Shown: one piece after another, positions 2,268-59,798 of the stretch
Layout of the letters: every line of letters begins with the position of its first letter
Numbering within the stretch: position 1 is the stretch's first letter
From: a virus
Taxonomy: Duplodnaviria; Heunggongvirae; Uroviricota; Caudoviricetes
Direction: 5' to 3' (one strand)
Virus record (IMG/VR): IMGVR_UViG_3300035208_005701
DNA: 64,000 bases
Made by a program: the position numbers and the translations under genes
Notes under the pieces: generated by a model
The model's input: the letters and a program-made list of their open reading frames with translations, nothing else
The model's database searches: none
Told to the model about the DNA's origin: nothing

Positions 2268-2276
2268 GGATAATAT

Positions 2277-18898: not shown

Positions 18899-19225
18899 AT
18901 GAAAGAAACAAAATTAGAAATAAAAATTGGAAAACGAGAGGATAAAGTATTAATTGAATTTTCTGATAAAGTTTGTTATTTACTTTTAAATCCTAAAGAA
19001 GCATCTAATATATCTGATACTATAAAAAAAGTTTCTGAATCTATTTTAATTTTTAACAATGGAAATAAGAAATGAAGACAGTATATATTTTTATTATTTC
19101 TATTTTATTATCTGGTTGTATTTTACTAAATAATGATCTTAGACCTCCATTAATGAATAATGATTCATTTATGAATTTTCAAACATATGAAAATCAAAAT
19201 TTGATATATGGGAGTAATTATAATT

Positions 19226-19891
19226 ATGCTTAATTTATTTTCTGAATTTAAAAAAACTAATTTTAAAGGGGGATTTTTTAAATTCAATCTTAACTTATTA
19301 TATACAGATCCAAGAGAAGTAGATTTGAAATTTAGAGCTCCGAGAAAAATAGATAATAGAGATATGTGTTTGCTTACTGATAATCAAGGTGATTCACCAT
19401 ATTGTGCTGCATATTCTACTGCTGGTTATATAGAATTTCAAAATTGGAAAACTTTACATTATCCATCTCAAATAGATTCTGTACAAATTTATAAAAAAGC
19501 TAAAGAGTTAGAAAATAATAATGCAGATGGAACTAGTTTCGAATATACTGTAGATGCTGCTAATAAACTTAATTTAATTAAAGGTAAATTTTCTATAGTT
19601 AAAAGTGAAGTATTAAGTATTAAATTTGCAATTCATCAATTTGGAGTTTGTTTAGCTGGATTTTTAATAACTGATGAATGGAATTATGTATCAAAGAAAA
19701 GTGGTATAATATCTAAAAATTCTAAACCGCAAATTCTGGCGGGTCATGCTGTCATATTAACTGGTTATGATGATACTGGAGTATATATTCAAAACAGTTG
19801 GGGTGATTCTTGGGGAGTTCATGGATTTGCTATATTATCTTGGGATCAATGTATTGATCAATTATTGTATGGTGCAGTTATAGAAAATTAA
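19226..19891 (+). CDS. Papain-like (C1 family) cysteine peptidase (alternative start 19208)
   Basis: QGDSPYCAAYS (catalytic Cys region, compare QGxCGSCWAF), GHAVILTGYD (His) and NSWGDSWGVHGF (Asn-Ser-Trp-Gly). Confidence 0.65.
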   Translation: MLNLFSEFKKTNFKGGFFKFNLNLLYTDPREVDLKFRAPRKIDNRDMCLLTDNQGDSPYCAAYSTAGYIEFQNWKTLHYPSQIDSVQIYKKAKELENNNADGTSFEYTVDAANKLNLIKGKFSIVKSEVLSIKFAIHQFGVCLAGFLITDEWNYVSKKSGIISKNSKPQILAGHAVILTGYDDTGVYIQNSWGDSWGVHGFAILSWDQCIDQLLYGAVIEN

Positions 19892-20911: not shown

Positions 20912-21273
20912 GGGGGAGTAAAGGTTTCGACGTGGTAAATTAAGTATGAATTGCATGTAGAGGATGATCGTTGGCCTCTTAAATAATCGATTAAAAAATA
21001 GACGAAAATTCTATTGATTTTTCTCCATTATCTCTTGCTGCATAAGTGAGACCAATTCTTAGGGATATTTCGACTTGAGAATTGACATAATTGAAATTGC
21101 AGGTTGAATAATTCGTTAAATTGTATTCAAATAAGAATCTTTAAATTAACTAGAATCAATATATAATAGTTTGTTGAATATATAGATTTTAAATTATTAA
21201 TACGAACTAAACATGTGAATGAAGTTTATATAGTATTTATTACGGATCTGGGTTCGACTCCCAGCTCTTCCAT
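20912..21273 (+). ncRNA. ssrA: tmRNA (SsrA-like), one-piece, about 362 nt
   Basis: 5' GGGGGAG-taaaGGTTTCGACG (compare GGGGCUGAUUCUGGAUUCGACG). 3' T-arm ctggg-TTCGACT-cccag, then ctcttcc pairing with the 5' gggggag, and discriminator A. Internal tag frame 21001..21045 is gac gaa aat tct att gat ttt tct cca tta tct ctt gct gca TAA (..DENSIDFSPLSLAA*), preceded by aaaaaaTAGac as in the E. coli resume context. Confidence 0.8.
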
Positions 21274-25003: not shown

Positions 25004-25846
25004 ATGTACCAAATAAATAGTGATTACTTATATAGAATAGGTTCTTCTCATTCTGTATGTCAAGATTATTGCATATCTGGTAATTTAAGACAAATGATGC
25101 CTTATATTATTATTGCAGATGGATGTTCAAGTTCTCCTCAAGTAGATGTTGGATGTAGAATTTTAGTTCATTGTGCTAAATGGCAATTGGATGTATCTTT
25201 AATATATAATCAACATACAGAACATCTTGATTCATTTGCTGATATAATGGGGGATAGAATAATTAAAGATGCTGATATTATAAAGAGAAATCTAAATTTA
25301 CATGATCAAAGTTTAGATTCTACTTTATTAATTGCATTTATATATCATGGAAATATTAATATTATAACTTACGGAGATGGTAATTTTCTAATAAAGAGAC
25401 GAGATGATATCATAACCAATACTAGATTATCATACTCTAGTGGTGCCCCATATTATTTAAATTATCTTACAAATAAAGAAAGAAATGAAAGATATAAAAA
25501 GGAATTTAAAGATTCGGTATTTGAATCTGAAGTGATAATTAATAAATCTTCTACTAAAATTGAATACCCTTTTAGTCACCATTTAACATATCAATGTCCA
25601 ATTCAAGATGTTGAATTTCTTTTATTAGCTAGTGATGGATTGACTACTTGGGAAGATAAATTTCATAATTTTATTTATATTCCACCTCAAGAATTCTTGA
25701 ATTTTAAAAATACTACAGGGGAATTTGTAACAAGAAGAATAAACAGAATAACAAAAGATATGAAAGAAAGAAATATTAGTCATTACGATGATTTAAGCAT
25801 AGCTGGATTTCATATTCAGGAGGTTGATAATGGAATATCAGATTAA
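25004..25846 (+). CDS. PP2C-like Ser/Thr phosphatase (tentative)
   Basis: IIADGCSSS...VG and LLASDGLTTWED resemble the PP2C Asp/Gly-rich metal-binding motifs. Confidence 0.5.
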   Translation: MYQINSDYLYRIGSSHSVCQDYCISGNLRQMMPYIIIADGCSSSPQVDVGCRILVHCAKWQLDVSLIYNQHTEHLDSFADIMGDRIIKDADIIKRNLNLHDQSLDSTLLIAFIYHGNINIITYGDGNFLIKRRDDIITNTRLSYSSGAPYYLNYLTNKERNERYKKEFKDSVFESEVIINKSSTKIEYPFSHHLTYQCPIQDVEFLLLASDGLTTWEDKFHNFIYIPPQEFLNFKNTTGEFVTRRINRITKDMKERNISHYDDLSIAGFHIQEVDNGISD

Positions 25847-27545
25847 AGATATTCAAACAAAATCAATTAATTCAGTATCATTGACAAATGCTCATTTTAT
25901 AACTGAAGGTGGAGAAGGAAAAGTATTTGGAAAAAATGATACAATATATAAAATTTATATAGAACCTAAAAAAATGATTTCTCTATCTAAAATACATGAA
26001 CTTTCTTATTTAGATAAAGATAATATATTAAAACCATTAAATATTATACTTGATAAAAAAGGTATACAAATCGGATTTACTATGAAATGGTTAAAAAATT
26101 CTACTCCGATATGTAAATTATTTACAAGTGATTTTTGGACTAGATTTAATATCAATAATAAGATTATTTCAGAGCTAGTTAAAAATATGATTAATGATAT
26201 TAAATACATTCACAGTAAAAATTGTTTAATAGTAGATGGAAATGAAATGAATTATCTTATAGATTCTAAGAATTTTATTTTTCCATATTTTATTGATGTA
26301 GATAGTTATCAAACTTCTAGTTTTCCAGCAACAGCTATAATGACATCTATTAGAGATTTACATTCAAATACTTTTTCTGAATTAACTGATTGGTTTTCTT
26401 TTGGTATTATTTCTATTCAATTATTTATAGGAATACATCCATTTAAAGGGACTCATCCAGATTATTCTAAAAAAGATTTAGAGAAAAGAATGAAAGATAA
26501 CATTTCTATATTTAATAAAGATGTAAGACTTCCAGCTACTGTTAGAGATTTAAATTGTATTCCAAAAGAATATAAAGATTGGTATATTAAATTATTTGAA
26601 AAGGGAGAAAGATTGCCTCCACCTCAAATAGGAATTGTTACTGTTTCAATAATTAATAAAAAGATTATAAATAATTCAGATTCTTTTAAGATATCATTAT
26701 TTAAAGAAATAGAAAATGATATAGTAAAAATTGATGATGAAGGAAATATTTATTCAAAAATAAAAATTTATATTGATAAAGGAGAATATGATAGTAATGT
26801 AGATTCAGATTTAATTTATTCTATTAAATCTTTTACTCCGATCAAAGTTCATATAAATGAAAAAAAAATGATCTTAGAAAAATTAAATGGTGAAAAAATT
26901 AATTGTATATATGAATGTAATAGTAAAACATTAATAGATAACCATCTTTATATTTTAAATGATGATAAATTATTGGCTATAGAGATAGATGAAATTGGTA
27001 AAACTTTTATTCCAGTAGTTAAAACCTTTTGGAATGTTTTGCCTAATTCTACTAAATTGTATTCTGGAATTATTTATCAAGATATTTTAGGACTTCCATA
27101 TTTCAACTTGCCATATATCTCTAAAAATGGAAATCGAGCATGTATGACTAAGTTAATTAGTGAATTAAAGAAATATAAAATAGTTGAAATGAAGAATGAT
27201 AAAAATGTGATTTTTGTCATTGCTTTTAAAAATGGTAAATATGACAGATTTATTTTTAAAGTCAATGATGATTATTCTGAATATAATTGTCAGAAATTTG
27301 AAGATGTGACATATCATGTTCCGAATTTTGTCACTCTTGATAATGGGGTGGTTGTATCTATTAATGATGATGATCAAGTAGAAATTTTTAGTAGAAGTTT
27401 GTTAAAATCAGATATCAATATAATAGAAGATAAACATATAAATTATAATATGAAATTGTGGAAAAAGGGAGTGAATGTTTTTATAACAGAAGAAAATAGA
27501 ATGTATAATTTTTCAATGAAAAAAAATGAAAGGGAAATAGTATGA
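25830..27545 (+). CDS. Eukaryote-like Ser/Thr protein kinase-like protein
   Basis: IHSKNCLIVDGNEMNYLID (catalytic-loop-like), FIDVDS (DFG-like) and DWFSFGIISIQLFIGIHPF (the APE / D.WS.G region). Confidence 0.55.
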   Translation: MEYQIKDIQTKSINSVSLTNAHFITEGGEGKVFGKNDTIYKIYIEPKKMISLSKIHELSYLDKDNILKPLNIILDKKGIQIGFTMKWLKNSTPICKLFTSDFWTRFNINNKIISELVKNMINDIKYIHSKNCLIVDGNEMNYLIDSKNFIFPYFIDVDSYQTSSFPATAIMTSIRDLHSNTFSELTDWFSFGIISIQLFIGIHPFKGTHPDYSKKDLEKRMKDNISIFNKDVRLPATVRDLNCIPKEYKDWYIKLFEKGERLPPPQIGIVTVSIINKKIINNSDSFKISLFKEIENDIVKIDDEGNIYSKIKIYIDKGEYDSNVDSDLIYSIKSFTPIKVHINEKKMILEKLNGEKINCIYECNSKTLIDNHLYILNDDKLLAIEIDEIGKTFIPVVKTFWNVLPNSTKLYSGIIYQDILGLPYFNLPYISKNGNRACMTKLISELKKYKIVEMKNDKNVIFVIAFKNGKYDRFIFKVNDDYSEYNCQKFEDVTYHVPNFVTLDNGVVVSINDDDQVEIFSRSLLKSDINIIEDKHINYNMKLWKKGVNVFITEENRMYNFSMKKNEREIV

Positions 27546-32929: not shown

Positions 32930-33442
32930 ATGAAAATATATATGATAGAAAATAAAATACAAGATGAAATTTGGGAAATGAGAACTGATAACAATTGGTA
33001 TGTGAGATTAGAAGTTGTAAACAAATTAGAAGATCAAAACCGGATTTGGGAAATGAGAAATGATAAAAATTGGTATGTGAGAAGAGAAGTTGTAAGAAAA
33101 TTAGAAGATCAGAACCTAATTTGGGAAATGAGAAATGATGAAAGCTTATGCGTGAGAAGAGAAGTTATACTTAAATTAACTGATCAAAACCGGATTTGGG
33201 AAATGAGAAATGATAAAAATTGGTATGTGAGAAGAGAAGTTGTAAGCAAACTAAAAGATCAAAATCGAATTTTGGAAATGAGCAATGATCAAGATTATGA
33301 TGTGAGAAGAGAAGTTATACTTAAATTAACTGATCAAAACCGAATTTGGGAAATGAGAAATGATGAAAGTGAATATGTGAGAGTAGAAGTTGCAAAGAAA
33401 TTAGAAGGTGATTATAAATTAGCACATTTTTTATTAGAATAA
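32930..33442 (+). CDS. HEAT-like (PBS-lyase-type) repeat protein, six or seven near-identical 23-aa repeats
   Basis: Repeats IWEMRNDKNWYVRREVVRKLEDQNR / IWEMRNDESLCVRREVILKLTDQNR ... (D.N.YVR.EV..KL). Confidence 0.6.
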   Translation: MKIYMIENKIQDEIWEMRTDNNWYVRLEVVNKLEDQNRIWEMRNDKNWYVRREVVRKLEDQNLIWEMRNDESLCVRREVILKLTDQNRIWEMRNDKNWYVRREVVSKLKDQNRILEMSNDQDYDVRREVILKLTDQNRIWEMRNDESEYVRVEVAKKLEGDYKLAHFLLE

Positions 33443-34462: not shown

Positions 34463-35014
34463 ATGAAAGATAAAAATATTATTTTAGCTTTAAAAGAATC
34501 GTTAAGATTACAAAATCATTATGCTGAACAATTAAATTCCTGTGATAATGGGCAACGTATGAAATTTAATAATATTGAAGGATGGATAAATAATTTAAAA
34601 TCTACAGGAGTAATTGATAGATTAAATTATTCACATCAACAATTATTTAGAGTTCCAAATGTAAGTTTCAATCCATCAGATGTTTTATTTTTTATTGGGA
34701 CGGGAGATAAAATATGGTTAGACAAATATATTGTCAACATGAATTCAGCAAGATATTATGTTTTTAAAAATAATTTACAATGCGTAACATGTGGAATAAG
34801 TGGAAAAGTATTTTATTTGGAAAAACAACTTATGCAAAAAAATTCAAAAGTTGATAAATTTCATTTTAATTTGTATGCTATTGATGATTATGGGATTGAG
34901 ATTTTGATGACGAAAGATCATATAATTCCATTATCTAAAAAGGGACAAAATAATAAAAAAAATTATCAAACCATGTGTCAAATTTGTAACAGTAAAAAAT
35001 CTAATAACATCTAA
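34463..35014 (+). CDS. HNH endonuclease
   Basis: C-terminal HIIPLSKKGQNNKKNYQTMCQICNSKKSN (H-N-H with CxxC). Also CVTCG upstream. Confidence 0.65.
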   Translation: MKDKNIILALKESLRLQNHYAEQLNSCDNGQRMKFNNIEGWINNLKSTGVIDRLNYSHQQLFRVPNVSFNPSDVLFFIGTGDKIWLDKYIVNMNSARYYVFKNNLQCVTCGISGKVFYLEKQLMQKNSKVDKFHFNLYAIDDYGIEILMTKDHIIPLSKKGQNNKKNYQTMCQICNSKKSNNI

Positions 35015-35471: not shown

Positions 35472-35536
35472 ATTTTAAAATTGGTAAATTTGCAAAGATT
35501 CAATTCAAACAAATTTATTTTTAAAGGAATTTGTTA

Positions 35537-36670
35537 ATGAAAATTGGAAATTTCAATCTAGATATTAATCATATTTCTCAATTTAATGAATTATTGAAAT
35601 CTAAAGAAGAATTAAAATTAAAAAAGGAACTAATAGGAGATGTTGAATTTACTAGTATTTGTTATATGATTGCTCTTCCAAATACATTTGACTCTTTTTT
35701 AAGTAGAGAATGTAGAGGAAGTTTATTTGATTCTAGTGGAAAAATAATATCTCGACCATTTCATAAATTTTTTAATATAGGTGAAAAGGAATTTACTCAA
35801 CCTCATTTATTAAAAGAAATAATTGGATATAAAGAAAAAGTAGATGGGAGTTTAGCTGTTCCAGTACTAGTTAAAAATAAAATTATTTGGAAAACTAAAA
35901 AATCTTTCTATTCAGATGTTGCAAAATATATTAATAAATTTTATTATCCAGAAGATCCATTAGAAGATATTTATAATCCAGATAAAAAATGTAGCCCTAA
36001 TGATACTAAATTAGATTGGACTATTAGAGATTTAATTTCGGAAAATAAAACTCCATTATTTGAATATGTCTCAATCAATAATAGAGTCGTTATTAAGCAT
36101 TTTAAAGAAGAATTGATTTATCTAAATACTAGAGATAATGTTCATGGATATTATTCCAGTATGAGCCATTTTCTTGATGATAAGTTTAATTTAGAAGTTT
36201 TTATAAATGATACTATTAAAAAAGAAGAAATTGAAGGATATGTTTTATATGATGATAATGATTTTTATAAATTAAAGACTAAATGGTATGTAGATAGACA
36301 TAAAGCTATGGATATGATTTCAGTTAGAGATTTAATTGATATAATATTGCAAGATAAATTAGATGATATAATTTCAATCCTTAATAATCTCAATTGCATT
36401 GAAAGAATAAAAATATATCAAAAATATTCAGAGGAAGTATTAAAATATATGATATATTTCGAAACGTTAGCTAAAGAGAAATTATTATATTATGATACTT
36501 TTGATTTAAAAAAATATGCTTCAAATATACAAACAGAAAACCCACCTATGAAATCTTTATTATTTGCAATGAAAAGAAAAGATAATTATGAATTAACTTT
36601 GAAAAAAATTATTGGAAATTATTTTAAAGAAAAGTATAAAGGAAAAGTTATAAAATTCAACGATGAATAA
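35537..36670 (+). CDS. RNA ligase, T4 Rnl1 (RnlA)-like
   Basis: Nucleotidyltransferase motif I YKEKVDGSLAV (T4 RnlA KEDGSL); size 378 aa, close to RnlA. Confidence 0.65.
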   Translation: MKIGNFNLDINHISQFNELLKSKEELKLKKELIGDVEFTSICYMIALPNTFDSFLSRECRGSLFDSSGKIISRPFHKFFNIGEKEFTQPHLLKEIIGYKEKVDGSLAVPVLVKNKIIWKTKKSFYSDVAKYINKFYYPEDPLEDIYNPDKKCSPNDTKLDWTIRDLISENKTPLFEYVSINNRVVIKHFKEELIYLNTRDNVHGYYSSMSHFLDDKFNLEVFINDTIKKEEIEGYVLYDDNDFYKLKTKWYVDRHKAMDMISVRDLIDIILQDKLDDIISILNNLNCIERIKIYQKYSEEVLKYMIYFETLAKEKLLYYDTFDLKKYASNIQTENPPMKSLLFAMKRKDNYELTLKKIIGNYFKEKYKGKVIKFNDE

Positions 36671-36904
36671 AGGAGATATTATGATATATGATTGTGCTGT
36701 TATAATCAGATCAGTATCTTATTGTTATGTTAAAATTAAAGCTAAAAGTTAACAATTAGCTTTAAAAAAAAGCTGAAAAATTATTTAATGAAGGTGACTT
36801 GTATTTTGATAAACCAGATGATGAGAAGCCAGAGTTTTGTATAGTTGATTAATTGAATCTACAGATTTTTAAATTCAATGATGAAGATAAATAAGGAGAT
36901 TAAA

Positions 36905-37330
36905 ATGTCATTATTAATTGCAAAAAAACAAATTTTAAAATTTAATGTAGAGGACATAGATAAATTAACAAGAAAGCTGCCAGTTAAATATAAAAGTTAT
37001 AAAAACTGCTTATGTAAAAAATGTTTTAATTGTACTAGATGTGATCAATGTAATAGGTGCAATTTATGTTTTGATTGTATATTTTGCTCTAACTGTTCTG
37101 TTTGTGTTAATTGTTATGATTGTGAATTATGTTATAAATGTATTGATTGTCTCTTGTGCTGTAAGTGCACGAACTGCAAAGATTGCGAAAATTGTCATTC
37201 ATGTAATTATTGTATTAAATGTTCTAATTGTTTTGGATGTGTCGGATTAATCAATGCAGAATATATGATTTGTAATGTACAATTAACTAAAAAACAATAT
37301 ACAGAAAAAATTAATCGATTGTTTAATTAA
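36905..37330 (+). CDS. Cysteine-repeat protein: about 26 consecutive xxC triplets (CKKCFNCTRCDQCNRCNLCFDCIFCSNCSVCVNCYDCELCYKCIDCLLCCKCTNCKDCENCHSCNYCIKCSNCFGCVG)
   Basis: Read directly. Start moved to the ATG after AAGGAGATTAAA (MSLLIAKKQ...). The overlapping +frame ORF 37041..37250 is an artefact of the 3-codon periodicity. Confidence 0.55.
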   Translation: MSLLIAKKQILKFNVEDIDKLTRKLPVKYKSYKNCLCKKCFNCTRCDQCNRCNLCFDCIFCSNCSVCVNCYDCELCYKCIDCLLCCKCTNCKDCENCHSCNYCIKCSNCFGCVGLINAEYMICNVQLTKKQYTEKINRLFN

Positions 37331-37346
37331 TCAAATGAGGAGTATT

Positions 37347-38219
37347 ATGCCAAAAATAATTATTTGTAAAGGGCTTCCGGCATCAGGAAAATCTACTTGG
37401 GCAAGAGAACAATGCAAAAATGATTATAAAAGAATCAATAAAGATGACCTTAGAAAAATGTGTCATGATAATATTTATAATGGAAAAAAAGAAAAATTTA
37501 TTTTGGCGATGAGAAATATATTTATTTATGAATCATTGATGATGGGATATAATATCATTATAGATGATACTAATTTAAATCCTGCACATGAAGAAAGTAT
37601 AAGACAACTTGTGAAATCTTATTGTGATGACCAAAATTGCTCAGTTTCAATAGAAGTGAAATTTTTTGATACTCCATTAGAAGAATGTATAATAAGAGAT
37701 GATAAAAGACCTATCGGAGAAAAAGTTGGAGAAAAAGTTATTAGAGATATGTATAACAAGTATCTTAAGAAATCTGTTGAATATATTAAAGATACTAATT
37801 TAAAAAATTGTATAATAGTTGATATTGATGGGACATTAGCTATTCGAGCAGATAGAAACCAATATGATGAATCTAAAGTTTATTTGGATAATCTTAATAC
37901 AAATATTTCAGATATTGTTAATTCTTATAAGAAAAATAATCCAGATATTTATGTTATGATTTTTTCAGGAAGAAAAGATTCATGTAAAGAAATGACAATT
38001 AAATGGTTAAATAAATATCAAATAATGTTTGATGAAATTCATATGAGATCCGTAGATGATAATAGAAAAGATTCAATAGTTAAAAAAGAATTATTTGAAA
38101 CTTATATAAGAAATAAATATAATTGTTTGTTTGTTTTAGATGATCGTAATTCAGTAGTAAATATGTGGAGAAATGACTTGGGTCTTCAATGTTTACAAGT
38201 AGCAGAAGGAGATTTTTAA
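37347..38219 (+). CDS. pnk: Polynucleotide 5'-kinase/3'-phosphatase, T4 Pnk-like
   Basis: N-terminal [21 protein letters not shown] (T4 Pnk [21 protein letters not shown]). C-terminal HAD-like phosphatase IVDIDGTLA (DxDGT). Confidence 0.8.
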   Translation: [290 protein letters not shown]

Positions 38220-39230: not shown

Positions 39231-39917
39231 ATGAAAATTTCGATTTTCAATTTTAAAGTTAAATTGTTTCAACAATGCATCGGAACTTTCTCTGCTCGTG
39301 TTAGTTATGATGATTTTGATATAAATATTCATAACATCAGTTTATATATTTGGGGAGATGGAACTAAACAAATATTTTTTCCAAGTAATTATAAGAAAGA
39401 ATTTTTTATAGAATCTGAAGATATTATTAAATTTATAAAAGAGGAGCTGATTAATAATTTTTTAAATACATATTTGTATTTTAAAAATTCAATTCATAAA
39501 GAAAAGATAATATATATTATTGATATAAATTTAGAATCGATGCTTGTAGGAACATCAATTAATTTGTTTGAGTATGAATCTGAGATTAATGAAGAATTAG
39601 AAAAATTTAAAGCTGAATGTAATATAACCAATGAAGAGATTCATATATCTTATAGTAAAAATGGAAAAGATGAAGATTGTAGATTTGAAATATTGAATAC
39701 TATATTCAAATATATAGAAGATAAAAATCCTTCTCTTAGAGAAAATATTAAAATAAAATTGAAACATCTAAACAAAAATAAAGAAAAATTAAAATCAGAT
39801 GATTATAAATATCAAGATACAATGGGATATTGGCGAGATAAAGAAAGTCACGAATTGATTCATGAATTATTACCAGACAGAGTTAAAAATTATATAGCGG
39901 AGTCATATTTAAAATGA
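39231..39917 (+). CDS. Hypothetical protein (228 aa)
   Basis: ORF; ATGA junction to the next gene. Confidence 0.4.
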   Translation: MKISIFNFKVKLFQQCIGTFSARVSYDDFDINIHNISLYIWGDGTKQIFFPSNYKKEFFIESEDIIKFIKEELINNFLNTYLYFKNSIHKEKIIYIIDINLESMLVGTSINLFEYESEINEELEKFKAECNITNEEIHISYSKNGKDEDCRFEILNTIFKYIEDKNPSLRENIKIKLKHLNKNKEKLKSDDYKYQDTMGYWRDKESHELIHELLPDRVKNYIAESYLK

Positions 39918-40270
39918 AAATACGTAATGGATTTATTAGTAACAGTTCAAGTTCTAGTTTTATTCTTTCATCTAACAAATCAATTAATCCGAAGGTAATT
40001 ATAAATTTAAATAATTACATTACTGAGATTAAAAATGAAGAAGAACTTTATAGAGCATTTGTTTATGGCTACGAATTGTCTGAATGGAATAAAAAATTGT
40101 TTAAAAAGTATAAAATATGTCAAAAATTACTTCAAACAGGAAAAATAGTATATCTGGGAGTTGTGTCAGATGATTCAGATGATCCAATTTCTGAAATGTT
40201 ATCTAGAGGATTTCTTAAAAGTAAAACCAATGAATATGAAATAATTGAAGATGTAGAAAGGTTAACATGA
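39914..40270 (+). CDS. Member 1 of the 'MKxRNGFVSNSSSSSFI' N-terminal-motif paralog family
   Basis: MKIRNGFISNSSSSSFILSS.... C-terminal shared block KIVYLGVVSDDSDDPISEML..GF. Confidence 0.6.
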   Translation: MKIRNGFISNSSSSSFILSSNKSINPKVIINLNNYITEIKNEEELYRAFVYGYELSEWNKKLFKKYKICQKLLQTGKIVYLGVVSDDSDDPISEMLSRGFLKSKTNEYEIIEDVERLT

Positions 40271-40620
40271 AACATAGAAATGGTTTTGTAAGTAATTCAA
40301 GTTCAAGTTCATTTATTATTACAAATATGACAAATGAATCAAAAACAATTGTAGATTTTGCTGAAGAAAATATTAATTTAGTGCAACAGTATAATAACAT
40401 GTATGATGTTCCTTATAATCAAAAACAAATAATTAATGATGCAAAGAAAAGACTTGGACGAAATAGTAATGATGAATATAGATTTAAACCTCATGAATCT
40501 AAAAGATTAGTTTTTGGAGATTCAGATGGTGATGATATTGGACAGATATATGATTATATGTTGAGAGATAAAGGAAAATCTGAAAGTTTTAAGTGGAAAT
40601 TTGATGAGTATTTAAGATAA
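40267..40620 (+). CDS. Member 2 of the MKxRNGFVSNSSSSSFI family
   Basis: MKHRNGFVSNSSSSSFIITN.... C-terminal RLVFGDSDGDDIGQIYDYML. Confidence 0.6.
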   Translation: MKHRNGFVSNSSSSSFIITNMTNESKTIVDFAEENINLVQQYNNMYDVPYNQKQIINDAKKRLGRNSNDEYRFKPHESKRLVFGDSDGDDIGQIYDYMLRDKGKSESFKWKFDEYLR

Positions 40621-40634
40621 AAACGGAGTTTGTA

Positions 40635-40997
40635 GTGAAACAGAGAAATGGTTTTGTAAGTAATTCTAGTAGTTCTAGTTTCTGTATTAAGAAGACAGAT
40701 ATTGATCATGACGAGCTGAAAAGGTTTTTGGAGGTATATGCTGAATGTTATACATTAGTAAATGATGATCCTGAAGATTCTAAGGAACAGCAGGACACCA
40801 CAGAAGAATACTATCTCCTACGTACTGAAAGTTATACTGACACATATTTAGAAGATCATTTTAAACTTCTTGAGTTTTTGAATAAGCGAAAGATCAAAGA
40901 TTATGTTGATAAGGTTAGATACAGGGGAGATGGACGACCCGATAAGAAAGAAGAAAAACAGGCATTAAAACTAGGATATTTTCCAGATGAGGTATAA
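40635..40997 (+). CDS. Member 3 of the MKxRNGFVSNSSSSSF(C) family (GTG start)
   Basis: (M)KQRNGFVSNSSSSSFCIKK...; acidic middle region. Confidence 0.55.
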   Translation: MKQRNGFVSNSSSSSFCIKKTDIDHDELKRFLEVYAECYTLVNDDPEDSKEQQDTTEEYYLLRTESYTDTYLEDHFKLLEFLNKRKIKDYVDKVRYRGDGRPDKKEEKQALKLGYFPDEV

Positions 40998-41372
40998 ATG
41001 AAGAAAAGAGCTGGTTTCGTTTCAAATAGTTCAAGTAGTAGTTTTATTTTATCATCAGAAAAAACAAAACATTTAACAATAAAAATGGAATTGTCGTTAG
41101 ATGATCTTATTACTAAAATAATTAATACTCAAGATGAATTGATTGAATATATGTTTGATGAATATTGTTTAGATACTAAAAATCCAAATGATTGGGATGA
41201 AAGAACTAAAGAAAAATACAAAAAATTTAAATGGGAATCATCAAAAGGGAAAAAACTTATCATTGGAGATTGTTCAAATGAAGATGATAATTCATTATCA
41301 CAATTATTATATAACAAAGGATTTCCAATGTTAATGGGAGATAATTACGAAGTTGTACAAAATACTTTATAA
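40998..41372 (+). CDS. Member 4 of the family
   Basis: MKKRAGFVSNSSSSSFILSS.... C-terminal KLIIGDCSNEDDNSLSQLLYNKGF. Confidence 0.6.
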   Translation: MKKRAGFVSNSSSSSFILSSEKTKHLTIKMELSLDDLITKIINTQDELIEYMFDEYCLDTKNPNDWDERTKEKYKKFKWESSKGKKLIIGDCSNEDDNSLSQLLYNKGFPMLMGDNYEVVQNTL

Positions 41373-41382
41373 TGGAGAATTA

Positions 41383-41682
41383 ATGAAAAATCCAATATGT
41401 CCAGTTTGTGGATCAAAGATAATAATGTGCTTTGGTGCAATGGAAGCAGATACTCATTTTGAATTTATTAATGGTAAACCTGTTTTGATGAAAGTGACTG
41501 TTAACCCATATCAAAATCATGGTGATCTTGAAGAAATAAGATGTTCTAAAAATTATGAACATTTAACTGATGATAAATATATAAATATAAATGATAGAGT
41601 AAAAATGGAAGAAGAGATTTGTACACATATTCGACGATTATCAAAGACGAAATTAACTCTATCAAATAAAAAGGATAAATAA
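41383..41682 (+). CDS. Small zinc-ribbon protein (start at the internal ATG; the track start 41353 overlaps upstream)
   Basis: MKNPICPVCGSKIIMC ... CSKNYEH. Confidence 0.4.
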   Translation: MKNPICPVCGSKIIMCFGAMEADTHFEFINGKPVLMKVTVNPYQNHGDLEEIRCSKNYEHLTDDKYININDRVKMEEEICTHIRRLSKTKLTLSNKKDK

Positions 41683-42765
41683 ATGTACAAATTTAAAGAA
41701 AATAAAGAGTTCAAAATAGTTTCTTCTTCAGATTATAATTATGTATTTAATAAGTTAAATGGACAATTTGCAAGATGGGGAAAGACAAAAGAAGATGATC
41801 CGCAACAGGCTCCAGCTCCAGAGATACTTGATTTAGAAATAAGTTCTGGAGGAGATTGTTTAGGTATGTGTCCTTTCTGCTATAAAGGTAATGGTGGAAC
41901 GCAAGAAACTTTTAATATGACTTTCGAAGATTTTAAAATTATATTTGATAAAATGCCAAAGTTTTTAACTCAGATAGCTTTTGGTATTATGAATATTGGA
42001 ACTAATCCAGACTTTTTTAAAATGATGGAATACTCTAGAGAACATGGAGTTATTCCAAATTATACTTGTCATGGATTAGATGTTACTAAAGAATATGCTG
42101 AACGAACATCTAAATTATGTGGAGCTGTTGCTGTTAGTATAATTAATAAAGAAAAAACTTTTGAATCTATAAAAATGTTTGCTGATGAAGGAATGACTCA
42201 AGTAAATATTCATTATATGGTTTCAAAAGAACGATATGATGAAGCTTTTAAATTAATTGATGAAATAGCAAAAAGAAAGATTCCTGTCAATGCTGTTGTA
42301 TTTTTGCAGTACAAGTCTAAAGGAAGAGGTACTGATAAATTCTCTCCTGTTTGTAGTGTTGAAGATTATAAGAAATTAATTGAACATGCTACAAATGCAG
42401 ATGTAAGAATTGGTTTTGATTCTTGTTCTTGTCCATTGTGGTACAAAACTATAGAGGGAACAATAGAGGAAAAGAAGTCTGTAATGGGTGAACCTTGCGA
42501 AGCAGCATGTATGAGCTCTTATATTAATTGTAAAGGAGAATTCTACCCATGTTCTTTTACTGAAGGAACTACCGGATGGGAAAATGGGATAGATGTATTT
42601 TCTGCTACTGATTTTATTAAAGATATATGGAATCATCCAAGAGTAAAAGATTGGAGAATTAGATTATTGGGTACTACTAATAACTGTAATTGTAAGTTCA
42701 AAAAGATATGTAGAAAATGTCCTATATATGATATAACAGATTGTAAAAATATAAAGGATAAATAA
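41683..42765 (+). CDS. Radical SAM enzyme with a C-terminal SPASM-like Cys-rich domain
   Basis: CLGMCPFCY (Cx3Cx2C plus aromatic) after ...LEISSGGD. C-terminal auxiliary-cluster-like cysteines: DSCSCPLWY ... CEAACMSSYINCKGEFYPCSF ... NNCNCKFKKICRKCPIYD. Confidence 0.8.
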   Translation: MYKFKENKEFKIVSSSDYNYVFNKLNGQFARWGKTKEDDPQQAPAPEILDLEISSGGDCLGMCPFCYKGNGGTQETFNMTFEDFKIIFDKMPKFLTQIAFGIMNIGTNPDFFKMMEYSREHGVIPNYTCHGLDVTKEYAERTSKLCGAVAVSIINKEKTFESIKMFADEGMTQVNIHYMVSKERYDEAFKLIDEIAKRKIPVNAVVFLQYKSKGRGTDKFSPVCSVEDYKKLIEHATNADVRIGFDSCSCPLWYKTIEGTIEEKKSVMGEPCEAACMSSYINCKGEFYPCSFTEGTTGWENGIDVFSATDFIKDIWNHPRVKDWRIRLLGTTNNCNCKFKKICRKCPIYDITDCKNIKDK

Positions 42766-46559: not shown

Positions 46560-46772
46560 TTCAAAAATTTTTTGGAATAAATTATACAAGGAGAAACTAT
46601 GAAGAAACAACTATTAAATTTATTTGTGAAACATCATAGTCTACTTAGTATGATTCTTGGTGGAGGAATATTTCTACCTAGAATAATTCAGGAATAGAGT
46701 TGAAATTACTTGTTCCTGAAAGAAACCTTTTAGGAAGAAGCTAAAAGGAAGTTTAATTTTTTATATTATTAT

Positions 46773-46845
46773 CTGGGTGTGGGATAGTTGGTAATCTGTC
46801 CGGTCTGGAACCGGAAGATCAGAAATTCAAATCTTCTTACCCAGA
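46773..46845 (+). tRNA. tRNA-Pro (anticodon TGG), 73 nt, with C33 instead of U33 and a weak last T-stem pair
   Basis: Hand-folded. Acceptor ctgggtg / tacccag (C1:G72) with discriminator A73, both tRNA-Pro identity features. D-arm ggat-agttggta-atct. Anticodon arm tccgg-tcTGGaa-ccgga. T-arm agaaa-ttcaaat-cttct. Confidence 0.55.
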
Positions 46846-46945
46846 TATTTATTTTGCATCTATAGAGTAGTATTTGTGATTTCTCATCATAAGGTCTCGA
46901 TGCAATTTTGAGTAAACTCTTATTTAATTTAAAGGATATATTTAT

Positions 46946-47185
46946 ATGAGTGATATTTGTAAATGTAAATTATGTAAAAGATCCAGAAAAGTTAAAAGAT
47001 ATTTATATAAAATTTCAGATGAAAAAGTTAGAAAGTTTTTTCGTCAAATATATGAGTCATTAAATAATGTTGAATTCGATGTAGAGTGGCTAGCTGCAAG
47101 AAAAGAGACATTTGCAAAGTATCTTATGAATAAAAAATTATTATATGATTTTACAGTTTGGAAAATGGGAAATAAAGAATTTTAA
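46946..47185 (+). CDS. Hypothetical basic small protein (79 aa)
   Basis: ORF between the tRNA genes. Confidence 0.4.
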   Translation: MSDICKCKLCKRSRKVKRYLYKISDEKVRKFFRQIYESLNNVEFDVEWLAARKETFAKYLMNKKLLYDFTVWKMGNKEF

Positions 47186-47187
47186 TT

Positions 47188-47269
47188 GCCGAGTTGTCGG
47201 AATTGGTATACGAGCAGGTCTTAGAAATCTGTGGAGAAATCTATAAAAGTTCAAATCTTTTACTCGGCA
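47188..47269 (+). tRNA. tRNA-Leu (anticodon TAG), type II with a long variable arm, 82 nt
   Basis: Hand-folded. Perfect 7-bp acceptor gccgagt / actcggc, discriminator A. 3-bp D-stem tcg/cga with an 11-nt D-loop. Anticodon arm caggt-ctTAGaa-atctg. 13-nt variable region. T-arm aaaag-ttcaaat-ctttt. Confidence 0.75.
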
Positions 47270-47288
47270 CTTATAATAAGGAGTGAAC

Positions 47289-47513
47289 ATGATAATTTCA
47301 GCTGCGATGCTTATCAATTCTAAAATATATACTGGAAAACGTCATTATAACATAATAAAAGATAATCCTGGATTAACATTTAAAGATGGTATTCAGGGAT
47401 TTGTAGATGATAAAGATAAATTTTTAAATAGAAAACAAGCAGCTATAGAAGCTTTTAAGTGTGGTCAAATTTCAAAAAAAGTAACAGTTTTATTAAGTGA
47501 AGATTTGTATTAA
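47289..47513 (+). CDS. Hypothetical small protein (start at the ATG after AAGGAGTGAAC)
   Basis: ORF only. Confidence 0.4.
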   Translation: MIISAAMLINSKIYTGKRHYNIIKDNPGLTFKDGIQGFVDDKDKFLNRKQAAIEAFKCGQISKKVTVLLSEDLY

Positions 47514-47694
47514 GGATTCAATAATGTTAATTAAAGTTAAAAGATATGATACTACTTATTATTATCCAACTGAAACAAGATATATGATATATAATATTAA
47601 AAAGAGAAAATTAATTAAATCATCTGAAGAAACAAAATCTAAAAATAAAATAGATATTTACGCATAAAGTTAAATTTAATATTTAGGGGTAAAA

Positions 47695-48048
47695 ATGAAA
47701 ATTCGAACAGGATTTGTTAGTAGTTCTTCTTTTGTAATTTATGGAATTAGATTAACTAAAGATCAAATTAATTATTTGCTTAAAAAATATAAGGTTGATA
47801 CTGTAGATGAATTACCAAGAAAATTCGGAGATGTTGAATTGGTATATAGTTCAGATGATGCTCCCTCAGAAAAAATAAATTACTTTCTCGCAAATTGGAT
47901 ATCTCCCGAAATATATGGTATAGGTGAGTATGATTTAACTTGTAATGATATATTGAAAATTAAAGAATCAATTTATAAAATACTAGATGTAAGAATTGAA
48001 CCTAAATTAATTGTCAAATATAATGAAAGTAAGAAATGGATTCATTAG
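47695..48048 (+). CDS. Divergent member 6 of the family (MKIRTGFVSSSSFVIYG; shortened Ser run)
   Basis: N-terminus MKIRTGFVSSSSF. Confidence 0.5.
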   Translation: MKIRTGFVSSSSFVIYGIRLTKDQINYLLKKYKVDTVDELPRKFGDVELVYSSDDAPSEKINYFLANWISPEIYGIGEYDLTCNDILKIKESIYKILDVRIEPKLIVKYNESKKWIH

Positions 48049-48223
48049 TAACTCGAGTAGTTCTTCTTTTATAGTTTGTGTAAGATTTATATATGATAGT
48101 TTCAACAATTCCAATAAATTATTGATTGATAAAAAATCTATAAAAAACTTATTAATTATGGATTTCAGAAATGTAATTGGTCAAGTCCAATATCATTGTA
48201 TTTTAATGAAGATTTGTTATTAA
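48023..48223 (+). CDS. Member 7 of the family, apparently truncated (MKVRNGFISNSSSSSFIVCV..., about 66 aa). Possibly a pseudogene, with the continuation frameshifted into 48196..48426
   Basis: Canonical N-terminus, but the ORF ends early. The adjacent ORF is in a different frame. Confidence 0.4.
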   Translation: MKVRNGFISNSSSSSFIVCVRFIYDSFNNSNKLLIDKKSIKNLLIMDFRNVIGQVQYHCILMKICY

Positions 48224-48527
48224 TTAATTATAAAGAGGTAATTGATAATATTAATATTAAAACTTTAGGATATTGTATACAATGCAATCAAAATGATGTG
48301 ATAGAATTTTTGGTGGAAAATAAAATATCATTTAATTCAACTATTCATAATTTATCTGAAATTTTATTATATGATTCTGAAAAAAGATTTAATGTATTTT
48401 TATCAAAATTATGGATGTCAACATGAATTTGATATGATACTAAATAAAAATAATTTAATAGAGATAAAAGATAAATCCCCGTTAAAAGTATTAACAGGGA
48501 AATCTTGGTTGAAAAAATATAAGTAAT

Positions 48528-48600
48528 GGTGGTGTTGGCCGAGAGGTTTAGGCACTGGCCTGTGGAGCCAGAAAGATGGGTTCAATTCCCATACATCACC
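48528..48600 (+). tRNA. tRNA-His (anticodon GTG) with an encoded extra 5' G(-1)
   Basis: Hand-folded. G-1 then gtggtgt / acatcac acceptor (one G-U) and discriminator C. D-arm gcc-gagaggttta-ggc. Anticodon arm ctggc-ctGTGga-gccag. T-arm atggg-ttcaatt-cccat. No encoded CCA. Confidence 0.75.
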
Positions 48601-48625
48601 TATTCTCACAAAGAAAGGTTTTGAA

Positions 48626-49432
48626 ATGAGTTTTGAAAGATATAATGATTTATTAGTATATGCAAATCTTTCAAAGATGATTTATTTTGATGAAATAAGA
48701 TTTAAAATAGAATTAATAAAATCGCATTTGAGTGTTTCTTTTTTATCATGGATAGAAAATAAAGAAACAAATACTCAATGTGCGTTTATTAAATATAACA
48801 ATAAATTGATTCTAGTATTTAGAGGAACTACTCCAATTTCATCAGATATAAAAGAATTTTTTAATGATATTGAAACTAATATAAATTTTAAATTAAAAAA
48901 TTCAAAATTTAAAAATGAAAATTATAAAGTTCATAGTGGTTTTTTAAAATGTTATTTATCTATAAAAGATCAAATTGTTCAATTTTTAGGATTAACAAAA
49001 GAACTAATAATAATAGGACATAGTCTTGGTGGAGCTCTTGGTCATGTTGCAGCTTTGAATTTAAAAAATGAAGAAAAACTTAATAACAATTTATTTATTA
49101 GATGTTATACTTTTGCTTCTCCTAAGGTTGGAGATGAGAATTTTGTAAAATTATCAGATAAAAATTATAGAAGTTTAAATGTAATAAATGTTCAAGATCC
49201 GATTCCATGTTTACCTCAAAATATTTTTGGATATTGTAATTTGGGTCATGAATTATTATTAGGAAAAAATAATTGCTATATAAAATCTTTGAAAGTTCAT
49301 GCGATAGTTAAATATATAGAACTTATAAATAACACTATAATTCAATCAAATTTGCATCGAAATTTAAAATATCAAAAATTTAGATTCAAAATATTATCTA
49401 AAATTAAATGTATTATTCGAAAAATTTTTTAA
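48626..49432 (+). CDS. Class 3 lipase (alpha/beta hydrolase)
   Basis: Nucleophile elbow IIGHSLGGALGHVAAL (GHSLGG) and YRVHSGF upstream. Confidence 0.65.
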   Translation: MSFERYNDLLVYANLSKMIYFDEIRFKIELIKSHLSVSFLSWIENKETNTQCAFIKYNNKLILVFRGTTPISSDIKEFFNDIETNINFKLKNSKFKNENYKVHSGFLKCYLSIKDQIVQFLGLTKELIIIGHSLGGALGHVAALNLKNEEKLNNNLFIRCYTFASPKVGDENFVKLSDKNYRSLNVINVQDPIPCLPQNIFGYCNLGHELLLGKNNCYIKSLKVHAIVKYIELINNTIIQSNLHRNLKYQKFRFKILSKIKCIIRKIF

Positions 49433-59770: not shown

Positions 59771-59798
59771 TTTACATTTTTAGATGGAAGGAGAATGC

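What the first reader, a model, noticed from the sequence alone, without database searches (positions are those of the whole stretch)
36905..37330. Extreme cysteine-repeat protein (about 26 tandem xxC triplets) between the RNA ligase and Pnk
Residues 45-125 are an uninterrupted run of Cys at every third position (CKKCFNCTRCDQCNRCNLCFDCIFCSNCSVCVNCYDCELCYKCIDCLLCCKCTNCKDCENCHSCNYCIKCSNCFGCVG), flanked by ordinary N- and C-terminal segments. Such an array could be a massive metal-binding or iron-sulfur sponge, a thioether (sacti/ranthipeptide-like) substrate for the nearby SPASM enzymes, or a redox decoy. Its position inside the Rnl1-Pnk RNA-repair module is unexplained. The periodicity also creates a spurious overlapping +1 ORF (37041..37250) that should not be annotated.
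Basis: seen in the sequence. Interest (0 to 1): 0.7.

Follow-up and report, generated by a model that had tools for sequence, protein, structure and literature searches.

The report
Phage cysteine-ladder repeat protein
A real phage gene encodes a small protein with cysteine at every third residue 26 times in a row; it belongs to a large, unnamed and unstudied protein family shared by phages, giant viruses and ultra-small (CPR) bacteria, and its place between the RNA-repair genes is accidental.

Summary
ORF 36905..37330 (+) has a Shine-Dalgarno site and encodes 141 aa with 26 Cys in perfect three-residue register (aa 37-112).

It is not a DNA repeat artefact. Thousands of homologs keep the periodicity. 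Phage-type relatives share an N-terminal helical segment and a strongly conserved C-terminal cap (Y-x-I-C-N-V-Q-L-T-K-x-x-Y) around arrays of 7-34 units. The array plus cap matches a module present twice in ~310/550-aa Patescibacteria proteins (hhalign probability 99.4%). In that module the register positions hold C/S/L/V and show a 12-residue superperiod.

The best reading is a folded, narrow beta-solenoid with Cys as the inward ladder, resembling the Tenebrio antifreeze beta-helix. That fold evidence is weak. The protein would act as a variable-length binding rod, possibly metal-stabilised.

No evidence links it to RNA repair. Other loci with relatives share no other gene with the window, and the closest Pnk relatives have ligase-Pnk with no such gene between. 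No RiPP link was found either: no leader match, no YcaO, and the SPASM enzyme sits next to a different paralog set.

No Pfam or NCBIfam model, solved structure or paper covers the family. The function remains unknown, and I rate interest as moderate.

The parts
36893..36898 (+). Shine-Dalgarno sequence AAGGAG, 6 nt before the ATG
   Evidence: Read directly from the sequence. The upstream in-frame ATG at 36878 has no such site.
36905..37330 (+). Complete CDS of the Cys-x-x repeat protein (141 aa + stop)
   Evidence: Homologs. Family alignments A1/A2.
36905..37012 (+). N-terminal segment (aa 1-36): two short helices (aa 7-11, 15-24) and a linker. It corresponds to the 'KEEILKMsKeEL' segment of phage-type relatives.
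   Evidence: Alignment A1. AF2 pLDDT 74-87 for aa 1-20.
37013..37240 (+). Cys-x-x array (aa 37-112): 26 Cys in exact three-residue register, 25 full triplets plus the closing Cys
   Evidence: Periodicity conserved in homologs, with 7-34 units.
37241..37327 (+). C-terminal cap (aa 113-141): VGLINAEYMICNVQLTKKQYTEKINRLFN, a strand plus helix. It is the most conserved part of the family.
   Evidence: N124 and Y132 (nearly) invariant. AF2 pLDDT 80-85. Aligned to the CPR module cap by hhalign at 99.4%. 83-100% identical among the four L006 paralogs.
37041..37250 (+). Spurious +1-frame ORF (69 aa, GTG start) with Val/Ala at every third residue; should not be annotated
   Evidence: Equivalent off-frame ORFs appear over the arrays of relatives, and one was mis-annotated in phage FL-1.
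36671..36904 (.). 234-nt AT-rich gap between the ligase stop and the Cys gene; consistent with an inserted gene carrying its own upstream region
   Evidence: Coordinates. The promoter scan was uninformative.
35531..36670 (+). Context: Rnl1-type RNA ligase (not functionally linked by any evidence)
   Evidence: PF09511 E 2.7e-18, phrog_562 E 3.7e-58.
37347..38219 (+). Context: polynucleotide kinase-phosphatase. The likely true start is 37347 (GAGGAG SD at 37337-37342), 16 nt after the Cys gene stop, so the two genes are probably co-transcribed.
   Evidence: HAD_PNKP E 2.3e-46, AAA_33, phrog_505 E 1.5e-87. Sequence read.

Best explanation
The ORF is a genuine, expressed-looking accessory gene of a jumbo-type, 26% GC phage. 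Its product is a stand-alone member of a very large protein family that has no curated model and has never been studied.

Shown: the family is built from a Cys-x-x structural repeat closed by a conserved C-terminal strand-helix cap.

Inferred: the array folds into a narrow beta-solenoid of about 12 residues per coil, roughly 6.5 coils here. Every third residue (the Cys) points into the core as a ladder. The other two positions, mostly S/T then D/N/Y/G in the family, face outward and evolve fast. The core Cys may be stabilised simply by packing, or by disulfides or bound metal; this cannot be decided here.

The protein would act non-catalytically, as a rigid rod of adjustable length that presents a repetitive surface to some partner, held between an N-terminal helical segment and the C-terminal cap.

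It is neither a component of the Rnl1-Pnk RNA-repair pathway nor a RiPP precursor. It is a moron-like insertion between rnl1 and pnk, probably co-transcribed with pnk.
For: Gene reality: SD, intact frame, and conserved flanks in homologs.

Family size: 4055 cluster representatives at E<=1e-3 and 1179 at E<=1e-10.

Phage-type members share N- and C-flanks around arrays of 7-34 units.

Homology to the CPR module: hhalign probability 99.4%, E 2.3e-21, 41% identity over 83 columns. Peribacteria caps read 'QYMICNVQYTKEQYEKY' against 'EYMICNVQLTKKQYTEKI' here.

Structural role of the register position:
- In 367 anchored modules, and in alignment A4, 27 consecutive every-third positions without indels hold C, S, L, I, V, G, T or A.
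- Cys-column autocorrelation is 0.68 at lag 3, 0.52 at lags 6 and 9, and 0.68 at lag 12. N/D peaks at lag 12 (0.43).
- This is the C-S-C-A inward pattern of the 12-residue TmAFP coil TCTxSxxCxxAx (from knowledge of 1EZG).

Weak fold support:
- AF2 model 1 has strand groups about 12 residues apart.
- Its best PDB match is TmAFP 1ezg (TM 0.54 on the target, rmsd 3.2 A over 71 columns).
- The best profile-to-PDB sequence hit is also 1ezg (E 1.4e-3).
- Earlier annotators obtained insect-AFP InterPro/Pfam hits on relatives.

Cap and flanks are modelled with pLDDT 74-87. In four tandem paralogs the array evolves fastest and the cap slowest.

Context is not conserved. The closest Pnk loci lack the gene.
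Against: - AF2 confidence over the array is low: mean pLDDT 56-60, and below 50 for aa 28-81 in the better model.
- Perfect phage-type arrays show no 12-residue signal at outward positions. They show a 9-residue one instead, probably from duplication units.
- Unit numbers show no preference for multiples of four.
- TmAFP-type helices are known as secreted, disulfide-bonded proteins. This protein has no signal peptide, so its core chemistry would have to differ.
- In phage-type members Cys is nearly 100% at register positions, stricter than packing alone would demand. That leaves room for metal binding or chemical modification.
- No binding partner or phenotype is known.
Confidence: 0.55

Rival explanations
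1. Metal-thiolate or iron-sulfur protein. The primary function of the array is to bind many metal ions or Fe-S clusters (storage, buffering, detoxification or electron transfer). For example, there could be one Cys4 site per 12 residues, or CxxCxxC cluster ligation as in ferredoxins.
For: - 26 Cys at CxxCxxC spacing. Weak sequence hits to CXXC zinc fingers (MLL/HRX, CXXC5, TET3) and LIM proteins.
- The protein is cytoplasmic with no signal peptide, so free thiols or metal sites are more plausible than disulfides.
- CPR relatives carry treble-clef zinc fingers at both ends (PF23477/PF13451, TIGR04272).
- Register Cys is almost 100% conserved in phage-type arrays.
- CxxCxxC is the canonical [4Fe-4S] motif (PMC9059760, PMC3320576, found).
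Against: - In cellular homologs the same register positions hold Ser, Leu, Val or Ile at 30-70%, which cannot ligate metal.
- There is no match to metallothionein, ferredoxin or any metal-binding Pfam/NCBIfam model.
- The array is rich in aromatic and bulky residues, unlike metallothioneins.
- Any number of units is tolerated, not multiples of 4.
- No metal-handling genes are adjacent in any context examined.
Confidence: 0.2
2. RiPP precursor. The N-terminal segment is a leader, and the Cys-x-x core is converted to thiazol(in)es (a heterocycloanthracin/sonorensin-like TOMM) or thioether-crosslinked by a radical SAM/SPASM enzyme of the phage or host.
For: - The array is compositionally indistinguishable from a bona fide sonorensin-family core: P0010, PF27784, E 1.8e-4, 'CSNCFHCTRCFNCSRC...'.
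- Haft (PMC2674419) showed that such precursors vary by whole Cys-Xaa-Xaa units and can be encoded far from their maturation genes.
- The window encodes two unnamed SPASM/twitch-type rSAM enzymes. One is distantly PapB-like (48 bits).
- The N-terminal ~30 aa are conserved, like a leader.
Against: - No match to the heterocycloanthracin leader (PF27784/TIGR03601), or to SCIFF or other precursor models.
- The most conserved part is a 29-aa C-terminal domain after the array, whereas TOMM cores are C-terminal.
- The array plus cap is homologous to an internal, duplicated module of 310-550-aa CPR proteins with degenerate Cys.
- No YcaO, E1-like or SagB hit appeared among the window ORFs tested.
- No rSAM ORF lies near relatives, except one in CP21 that is probably a deazaguanine-pathway enzyme (from memory, untested).
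- The SPASM gene is paired with a different paralog set.
Confidence: 0.08
3. Cis-acting translational sensor. The Cys-codon-rich ORF, 16 nt upstream of pnk, reports Cys-tRNA availability or integrity through ribosome stalling and thereby tunes pnk expression. The protein product would be secondary.
For: - Tight spacing to pnk and 27 Cys codons in 76.
- Polycysteine short ORFs act as Cys-responsive attenuators in mycobacteria (bioRxiv 10.1101/834739, found).
- Pnk and Rnl1 repair tRNAs (general knowledge from T4).
Against: - The protein sequence, including non-Cys flanks, is conserved across thousands of homologs in unrelated contexts.
- The closest Pnk relatives lack such an ORF.
- No tRNA-Cys or attenuator structure was seen.
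Confidence: 0.03
4. Not a real gene: a low-complexity DNA repeat or wrong-frame artefact.
For: - Periodic sequence keeps several frames open.
- A relative was annotated in the wrong frame.
Against: - SD site and an intact frame.
- Non-repetitive conserved flanks that exist only in this frame.
- No DNA-level tandem repeat.
- Thousands of homologs.
Confidence: 0.01

Closest known systems
Unnamed two-module Patescibacteria (CPR) proteins of ~310 and ~550 aa, e.g. Candidatus Peribacter riflensis ALM10101.1 (P0187), annotated 'hypothetical' or 'zinc-ribbon domain containing protein'
   Same: True homologs. They share the array plus the C-terminal cap 'CFGCVGL..K.Y.I.N.QYTKEEYE' (hhalign 99.4%), and the every-third-residue register.
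   Different: - The module is internal and duplicated.
- Register Cys is degenerate (C/S/L/V) with a clear 12-residue beat.
- Treble-clef zinc fingers are often present at the ends.
- They are cellular proteins in housekeeping-like contexts.
- Their function is equally unknown.
Phage and giant-virus Cys-array proteins: Campylobacter phages CP220 gp032, CP21_192 and CPt10; Vibrio phage 1.238 NVP1238B_69 ('insect antifreeze protein'); Flavobacterium phage FL-1; Mimiviridae ChoanoV1 A0A5B8IEK9; phrog_15341
   Same: Small stand-alone proteins with long perfect Cys-x-x arrays in early or DNA-metabolism regions.
   Different: - They have other N-terminal segments: 'LIDGYY.DSNNNKW' in Campylobacter phages and 'NGVS.EFA...N.TN.GCWNC' in Vibrio/FL-1.
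- They lack the Y-x-I-C-N-V-Q-L-T-K cap, so they are sister subfamilies sharing the repeat rather than orthologs.
Tenebrio molitor antifreeze protein (TmAFP, PDB 1EZG; Pfam PF02420)
   Same: - A 12-residue coil in which every third residue points inward (C, S, C, A), matching the C/S and C/L/V alternation and the lag-12 periodicity of this family.
- It is the best, though weak, fold and profile match.
   Different: - No TCT ice-binding motif.
- Four Cys per 12 residues instead of two.
- No signal peptide, so disulfide bracing is doubtful.
- No PF02420 hit at E<=0.1.
- Resemblance is probably convergent or very distant.
Heterocycloanthracin/sonorensin TOMM bacteriocin precursors (Haft 2009, PMC2674419; TIGR03601, PF27784)
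   Same: Repeated Cys-Xaa-Xaa units, variation by whole units, and near-identical core composition to some members (P0010).
   Different: - No leader homology.
- The array is followed by a conserved folded cap.
- Homologous to internal modules of large proteins.
- No cyclodehydratase, dehydrogenase or docking genes were found.
CxxCxxC metal sites: [4Fe-4S] ferredoxin motif, CXXC zinc fingers (MLL, CXXC5, TET3), metallothioneins
   Same: Cys spacing. Marginal sequence hits to CXXC domains.
   Different: - No significant model match.
- The array is far longer and uninterrupted.
- Cys is replaceable by Ser/Leu/Val in homologs.
- The array is aromatic-rich, unlike metallothioneins.

Membership tests
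Unnamed phage-type Cys-x-x repeat family (this work: alignments A1/A2) | N-terminal helical segment homologous to 'KEEILKMsKeEL..Y' | tested here: met
   Aligned in A1 and A2, with E17 nearly invariant. It is more divergent in the window protein (KKQILKFNVEDIDKL).
Unnamed phage-type Cys-x-x repeat family (this work: alignments A1/A2) | Uninterrupted (Cys-x-x)n array | tested here: met
   n = 26 here against 7-34 in 57 short relatives.
Unnamed phage-type Cys-x-x repeat family (this work: alignments A1/A2) | C-terminal cap [FY]GC.[GN][LI]...Y.ICNVQLTK..Y | tested here: met
   CFGCVGLINAEYMICNVQLTKKQYTEK is present. N124 and Y132 are (nearly) invariant. hhalign to the CPR cap gives 99.4%.
Heterocycloanthracin/sonorensin TOMM precursors (TIGR03601 / PF27784) | Leader peptide homologous to the family model | tested here: not met
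   No Pfam hit at E<=0.1 and no NCBIfam hit at E<=1.
Heterocycloanthracin/sonorensin TOMM precursors (TIGR03601 / PF27784) | Cys-Xaa-Xaa repeat core at the C-terminus of a 50-100-aa peptide | tested here: not met
   The repeat is present, but it is followed by a conserved 29-aa domain and the protein is 141 aa. Definition from PMC2674419.
Heterocycloanthracin/sonorensin TOMM precursors (TIGR03601 / PF27784) | Cyclodehydratase, dehydrogenase and docking protein present in the same genome | tested here: inconclusive
   None was found among the window ORFs scanned. Only 64 kb of a larger genome is available, and the host is unknown.
Insect antifreeze beta-helix (PF02420, TmAFP) | 12-residue repeat TCTxSxxCxxAx matching the Pfam model | tested here: not met
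   No PF02420 hit at E<=0.1. There is no T-C-T motif in the sequence.
Insect antifreeze beta-helix (PF02420, TmAFP) | 12-residue-per-coil beta-helix fold with every third residue inward | tested here: inconclusive
Insect antifreeze beta-helix (PF02420, TmAFP) | Secreted, disulfide-braced protein | not testable with these tools
   No obvious signal peptide in MSLLIAKKQILKFNVED... (sequence). The redox state needs experiment.
Sacti-/ranthipeptide precursors (SCIFF TIGR03973, PapA-like, etc.) | Match to a precursor model and an adjacent rSAM/SPASM maturase | tested here: not met
   No NCBIfam hit. The nearest SPASM gene is 4.3 kb away and adjoins other candidate substrates. Of the 13 relatives' loci, only CP21 has an rSAM ORF nearby.
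Metallothionein / ferredoxin / CXXC zinc finger | Significant match to a family model | tested here: not met
   No Pfam or NCBIfam hits. PDB sequence hits are only marginal, at E 0.014-0.1.
Metallothionein / ferredoxin / CXXC zinc finger | Stoichiometric metal or cluster binding | not testable with these tools
   Requires purified protein (ICP-MS, UV-visible, EPR).
Rnl1-Pnk RNA-repair module | Conserved co-occurrence with RNA ligase and Pnk | tested here: not met
   Thirteen loci with relatives share only this gene with the window. The two closest Pnk loci have ligase-Pnk without it.

The most novel reading that the evidence does not exclude
The all-Cys phage-type arrays form a cytoplasmic solenoid in which each 12-residue coil offers four inward thiolates. 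The protein would then encase a linear chain of metal ions or an extended metal-sulfide core: a genetically length-tunable 'metal-thiolate wire' or reservoir. This would be a protein architecture not described before, widespread in phages, giant viruses and CPR bacteria.
Probability: 0.1. Interest if true: 0.85.

Novelty: new variant of a known kind. Interest (0 to 1): 0.5.

Why it matters
The family is very large: more than 4000 50%-identity clusters, present in most Patescibacteria lineages sampled and in phages of very different hosts. It has no Pfam or NCBIfam model, no solved structure, and no paper that I could find.

The phage versions are the most extreme and regular examples. That makes them good targets for structure determination and for deciding whether a cytoplasmic all-Cys ladder is held by packing, disulfides or metals.

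In practical terms, the finding removes a false lead (a link to RNA repair or to SPASM enzymes). It also flags an annotation hazard: the arrays keep several frames open and have already been annotated in the wrong frame or as 'insect antifreeze protein', 'TNFR-Cys' or 'CaiB/BaiF'.

Finally, the arrays can be confused with heterocycloanthracin-type RiPP cores in genome mining.

Tried and rejected
- Family libraries. Pfam, NCBIfam and PADLOC scans of the protein and of cellular and phage relatives gave no family. PHROGs gave only phrog_15341, of unknown function.
- Phage database. Megablast of 15 kb around the gene against INPHARED phages found no match.
- Structure prediction. Two AF2 runs, with 11 and 40 sequences, gave only pLDDT 56-60.
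- DNA mimicry. Rejected as a general idea: arrays average -3.5 net charge, but the window array is +1 and the whole protein +9.
- Link to the 7-deazaguanine or rSAM pathway. This was suggested by CP21 (rSAM 0.8 kb away) and L006 (GTP cyclohydrolase I). It was rejected for lack of recurrence.
- 12-residue superperiod inside perfect phage arrays. Not found. A lag of 3 triplets is enriched instead, probably reflecting duplication units.
- Promoter and terminator scans were uninformative.
- Literature searches under several spellings found nothing on this family.
- The first search for related loci attempt with A2 failed because no stretch was conserved enough. It was solved with the cap alignment A3.

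Full report
**1. Observation**

The region holds an intact ORF on the + strand. AAGGAG lies at 36893-36898, the ATG at 36905 and the TAA stop at 37328-37330. The 141-aa product has 29 Cys. Twenty-six of them lie exactly three residues apart from aa 37 to aa 112; the others are C35, C86 and C123.

With the protein's own 20.6% Cys, 26 in-register Cys have a probability of about 1e-18. With the 1.8% Cys of the other ORFs in the window, the probability is about 7e-46.

The array is not a recent DNA tandem repeat. TRF reports only one 35-bp stretch of period 18, and the codons are mixed (21 TGT, 6 TGC). The neighbours are an Rnl1-type RNA ligase (35531..36670) and a T4-type Pnk (true start probably 37347).

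The +1 ORF 37041..37250 is a mechanical by-product. TGT/TGC read one base later gives GTN/GCN, so Val/Ala appears at every third residue. The same effect produced an off-frame 'VAPIAPVAP' CDS in the deposited annotation of Flavobacterium phage FL-1.

**2. It is a protein family, not low complexity**

No Pfam, NCBIfam or PADLOC model matches. Only phrog_15341, of unknown function, does.

Homology searches found metagenomic proteins of 80-170 aa that share three elements:
- a conserved N-terminal segment (KEEILKMsKeEL..YKW);
- a (Cys-x-x)n array of varying length;
- a strongly conserved C-terminal motif (Y-[MK]-I-C-N-V-Q-L-T-K-K-E-Y-E-K-K).

An exhaustive profile search found 4055 cluster representatives at E<=1e-3 and 1179 at E<=1e-10. 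Across 57 short members the array has 7-34 units. Any unit number occurs. Position 2 is mostly S/T/F/L and position 3 mostly D/N/Y/G. The window protein's 26 units are near the top of this range.

Most hits are proteins of about 310 and 550 aa from Patescibacteria (Peregrinibacteria, Gracilibacteria, Moranbacteria and others). All are labelled hypothetical. They contain the 'array + cap' module twice. A profile-profile comparison of phage-type proteins with the CPR module gives probability 99.4%, E 2.3e-21 and 41% identity over 83 columns. Peribacteria caps are almost identical to the phage cap.

Other phage subfamilies (Campylobacter T4-like phages, Vibrio phage 1.238, Flavobacterium FL-1) and giant-virus proteins share the array but have other N-terminal caps. 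Large AT-rich viral proteins reuse the array many times, once fused to a SAM-lyase domain.

**3. What the array is**

In 367 modules anchored at the last Cys before the cap, and in a clean alignment of 18 CPR modules, 27 consecutive every-third positions run without indels. They hold Cys, Ser, Leu, Ile, Val, Gly, Thr or Ala, which are small or hydrophobic residues.

The Cys-column autocorrelation is 0.68 at lag 3, 0.52 at lags 6 and 9, 0.68 at lag 12 and 0.53 at lag 15. N/D columns peak at lag 12 (0.43). The consensus reads KNCYLxFGxxxx / EDCxYGxxxxxS / xDCxDxxxxxxC / ELCYECxDCxxC. This is what a solenoid of 12 residues per coil, with every third residue pointing inward, would give.

The one known fold of that kind is the Tenebrio antifreeze beta-helix (TCTxSxxCxxAx, with inward C-S-C-A; from my knowledge of 1EZG). 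The supporting matches are all weak:
- 1ezg is the top Foldseek hit of AF2 model 1 (E 0.86, TM 0.54 on the target, rmsd 3.2 A over 71 columns).
- 1ezg is the top PDB hit of the family profile (E 1.4e-3, compositionally biased).
- AF2 model 1 shows strand groups about 12 residues apart.
- Relatives had already attracted insect-AFP InterPro hits.

The flanks are modelled with reasonable confidence. pLDDT is 74-87 at the N-terminus and 80-85 for the cap, which is a strand plus helix as expected for a solenoid cap.

There are weaknesses:
- The array itself is modelled at pLDDT <50 to 70.
- Perfect phage arrays show no 12-residue signal at outward positions.
- An all-Cys core in a cytoplasmic protein is unprecedented.

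The fold is therefore inferred, not shown.

**4. What it is not**

*RNA repair.* tblastn of every window ORF of at least 70 aa against 13 loci that carry relatives detects only the Cys gene itself. Those loci are early or DNA-metabolism regions containing DnaB, SNF2, SSB, a RecA-like ATPase, FEN or a DNA ligase. The two viral contigs with the closest Pnk (47-48% identity) have ligase followed by Pnk with no Cys gene. The gene is therefore an insertion. It sits behind a 234-nt gap after rnl1 and 16 nt ahead of pnk.

*SPASM substrate.* The rSAM/SPASM ORF 41683..42765 directly follows four or five paralogs that begin M-K-x-R-N-G-F-x-S-N-S-S-S-S-S-F. These are its obvious candidate partners. Both rSAM ORFs are far below any named family's threshold. 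Among relatives' loci, only Campylobacter phage CP21 has a radical-SAM ORF nearby.

*TOMM precursor.* Haft's Cys-Xaa-Xaa bacteriocins (PMC2674419) have a family-specific leader, a C-terminal core, and cyclodehydratase, dehydrogenase and docking genes. Here there is no leader match, the array is followed by the most conserved domain of the protein, and no YcaO, E1 or SagB hit was found among the ORFs tested. One caveat remains: a genuine sonorensin-family core (P0010) is compositionally indistinguishable from this array, and only 64 kb of the genome is visible.

*Metal sponge.* This is not excluded. However, replacement of register Cys by Ser/Leu/Val in homologs argues that ligation is not the ancestral role.

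**5. Evolutionary behaviour**

One metagenomic phage contig (L006) has four tandem paralogs. Their caps are 83-100% identical and their N-flanks 58-78%. Their arrays are 45-68% identical, a third of which is the invariant Cys, and range from 19 to 28 units. The array is thus the fast-evolving, length-variable part, as expected for a surface-presenting rod or spacer.

**6. Verdict**

The gene is a real accessory gene of a jumbo-type phage. The window also encodes multisubunit RNAP pieces, a T4-type topoisomerase II with an intein, SbcCD, a tmRNA and tRNAs.

The gene belongs to a huge, uncurated Cys-ladder repeat family. The most likely architecture is a capped, narrow beta-solenoid whose core is the Cys ladder. 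Its molecular partner and its core chemistry (packing, disulfide or metal) remain unknown.

I rate it a new variant of a known kind (a TmAFP-like Cys-braced solenoid repeat) rather than categorically new. Interest is moderate: the family is large and unstudied, and the phage members are extreme, but no mechanism or phenotype can yet be attached.

Noticed in passing
window 39914..42765: Four, possibly five, tandem paralogous ORFs (39914-40270, 40267-40620, 40635-40997, 40998-41372, perhaps 41353-41682). All begin M-K-x-R-N/A-G-F-[IV]-S-N-S-S-S-S-S-F. They are immediately followed by a radical SAM + SPASM ORF (41683..42765; CxxxCxxC at aa 58). The paralogs tested (three ORFs) have no Pfam or NCBIfam family. 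This looks like an rSAM maturase with multiple Ser-rich substrates, in a phage.
   Followed up: partly
window 7551..9589: A second radical SAM ORF (8579..9589) is distantly PapB/ranthipeptide-maturase-like over its full length (48 bits, far below the cutoff). It overlaps by 4 nt an upstream 343-aa ORF that has no family.
   Followed up: partly
window 20912..21272 and 46772..48601: A phage-encoded tmRNA (tag ENSIDFSPLSLAA) and tRNA-Pro(tgg), tRNA-Leu(tag) and tRNA-His(gtg). There is no tRNA-Cys despite the Cys-rich gene.
   Followed up: no
window 75..6634 and 59784..62534: Multisubunit RNA polymerase beta- and beta'-like ORFs (730, 1370 and 916 aa). Together with 25.8% GC and all large ORFs on one strand, this points to a jumbo-type phage. 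It has no megablast relative in INPHARED.
   Followed up: partly
window 10058..15584: A T4-type topoisomerase II. The GyrB-like ORF ends in an intein splicing domain. It is followed by a DUF7487 ORF (12288..13838) and a small ORF before the A subunit, so it is probably an intein or homing-endonuclease-interrupted gene.
   Followed up: no
window 32930..33442: A 170-aa protein made of about six HEAT-like repeats with a near-identical motif, IWEMRNDxNWYVRREVVxKLxDQN.
   Followed up: no
window 25004..27545: An adjacent PP2C phosphatase and Ser/Thr protein kinase pair. The window also holds a papain-like protease (19208..19891) and a class-3 lipase (48626..49432), which are unusual phage cargo.
   Followed up: no
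L002 (Flavobacterium phage FL-1, KY421186.2 26567..26911): The deposited CDS APZ82901.1 ('VAPIAPVAPIAP...') is an off-frame reading of a Cys-x-x array gene. The Cys frame has an N-terminus homologous to Vibrio phage 1.238 NVP1238B_69.
   Followed up: yes
L006 7737..10030: Four tandem paralogs of the phage-type Cys-array gene in one metagenomic phage contig. The gene caller had placed a minus-strand ORF (8629..8928) over the third copy.
   Followed up: yes
L013 2151..4750 and L023 25..3247: CPR genomes appear to carry two family members side by side. In L013, ORFs of 321 and 545 aa lie near the 308-aa member; their family membership was not checked. In L023 there are two ~550-aa copies, the first apparently frameshifted.
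   Followed up: no
window 34463..35014: An HNH endonuclease ORF lies about 500 nt upstream of the RNA ligase. It is a possible mobile element, near the RNA-repair module that also received the Cys-gene insertion.
   Followed up: no
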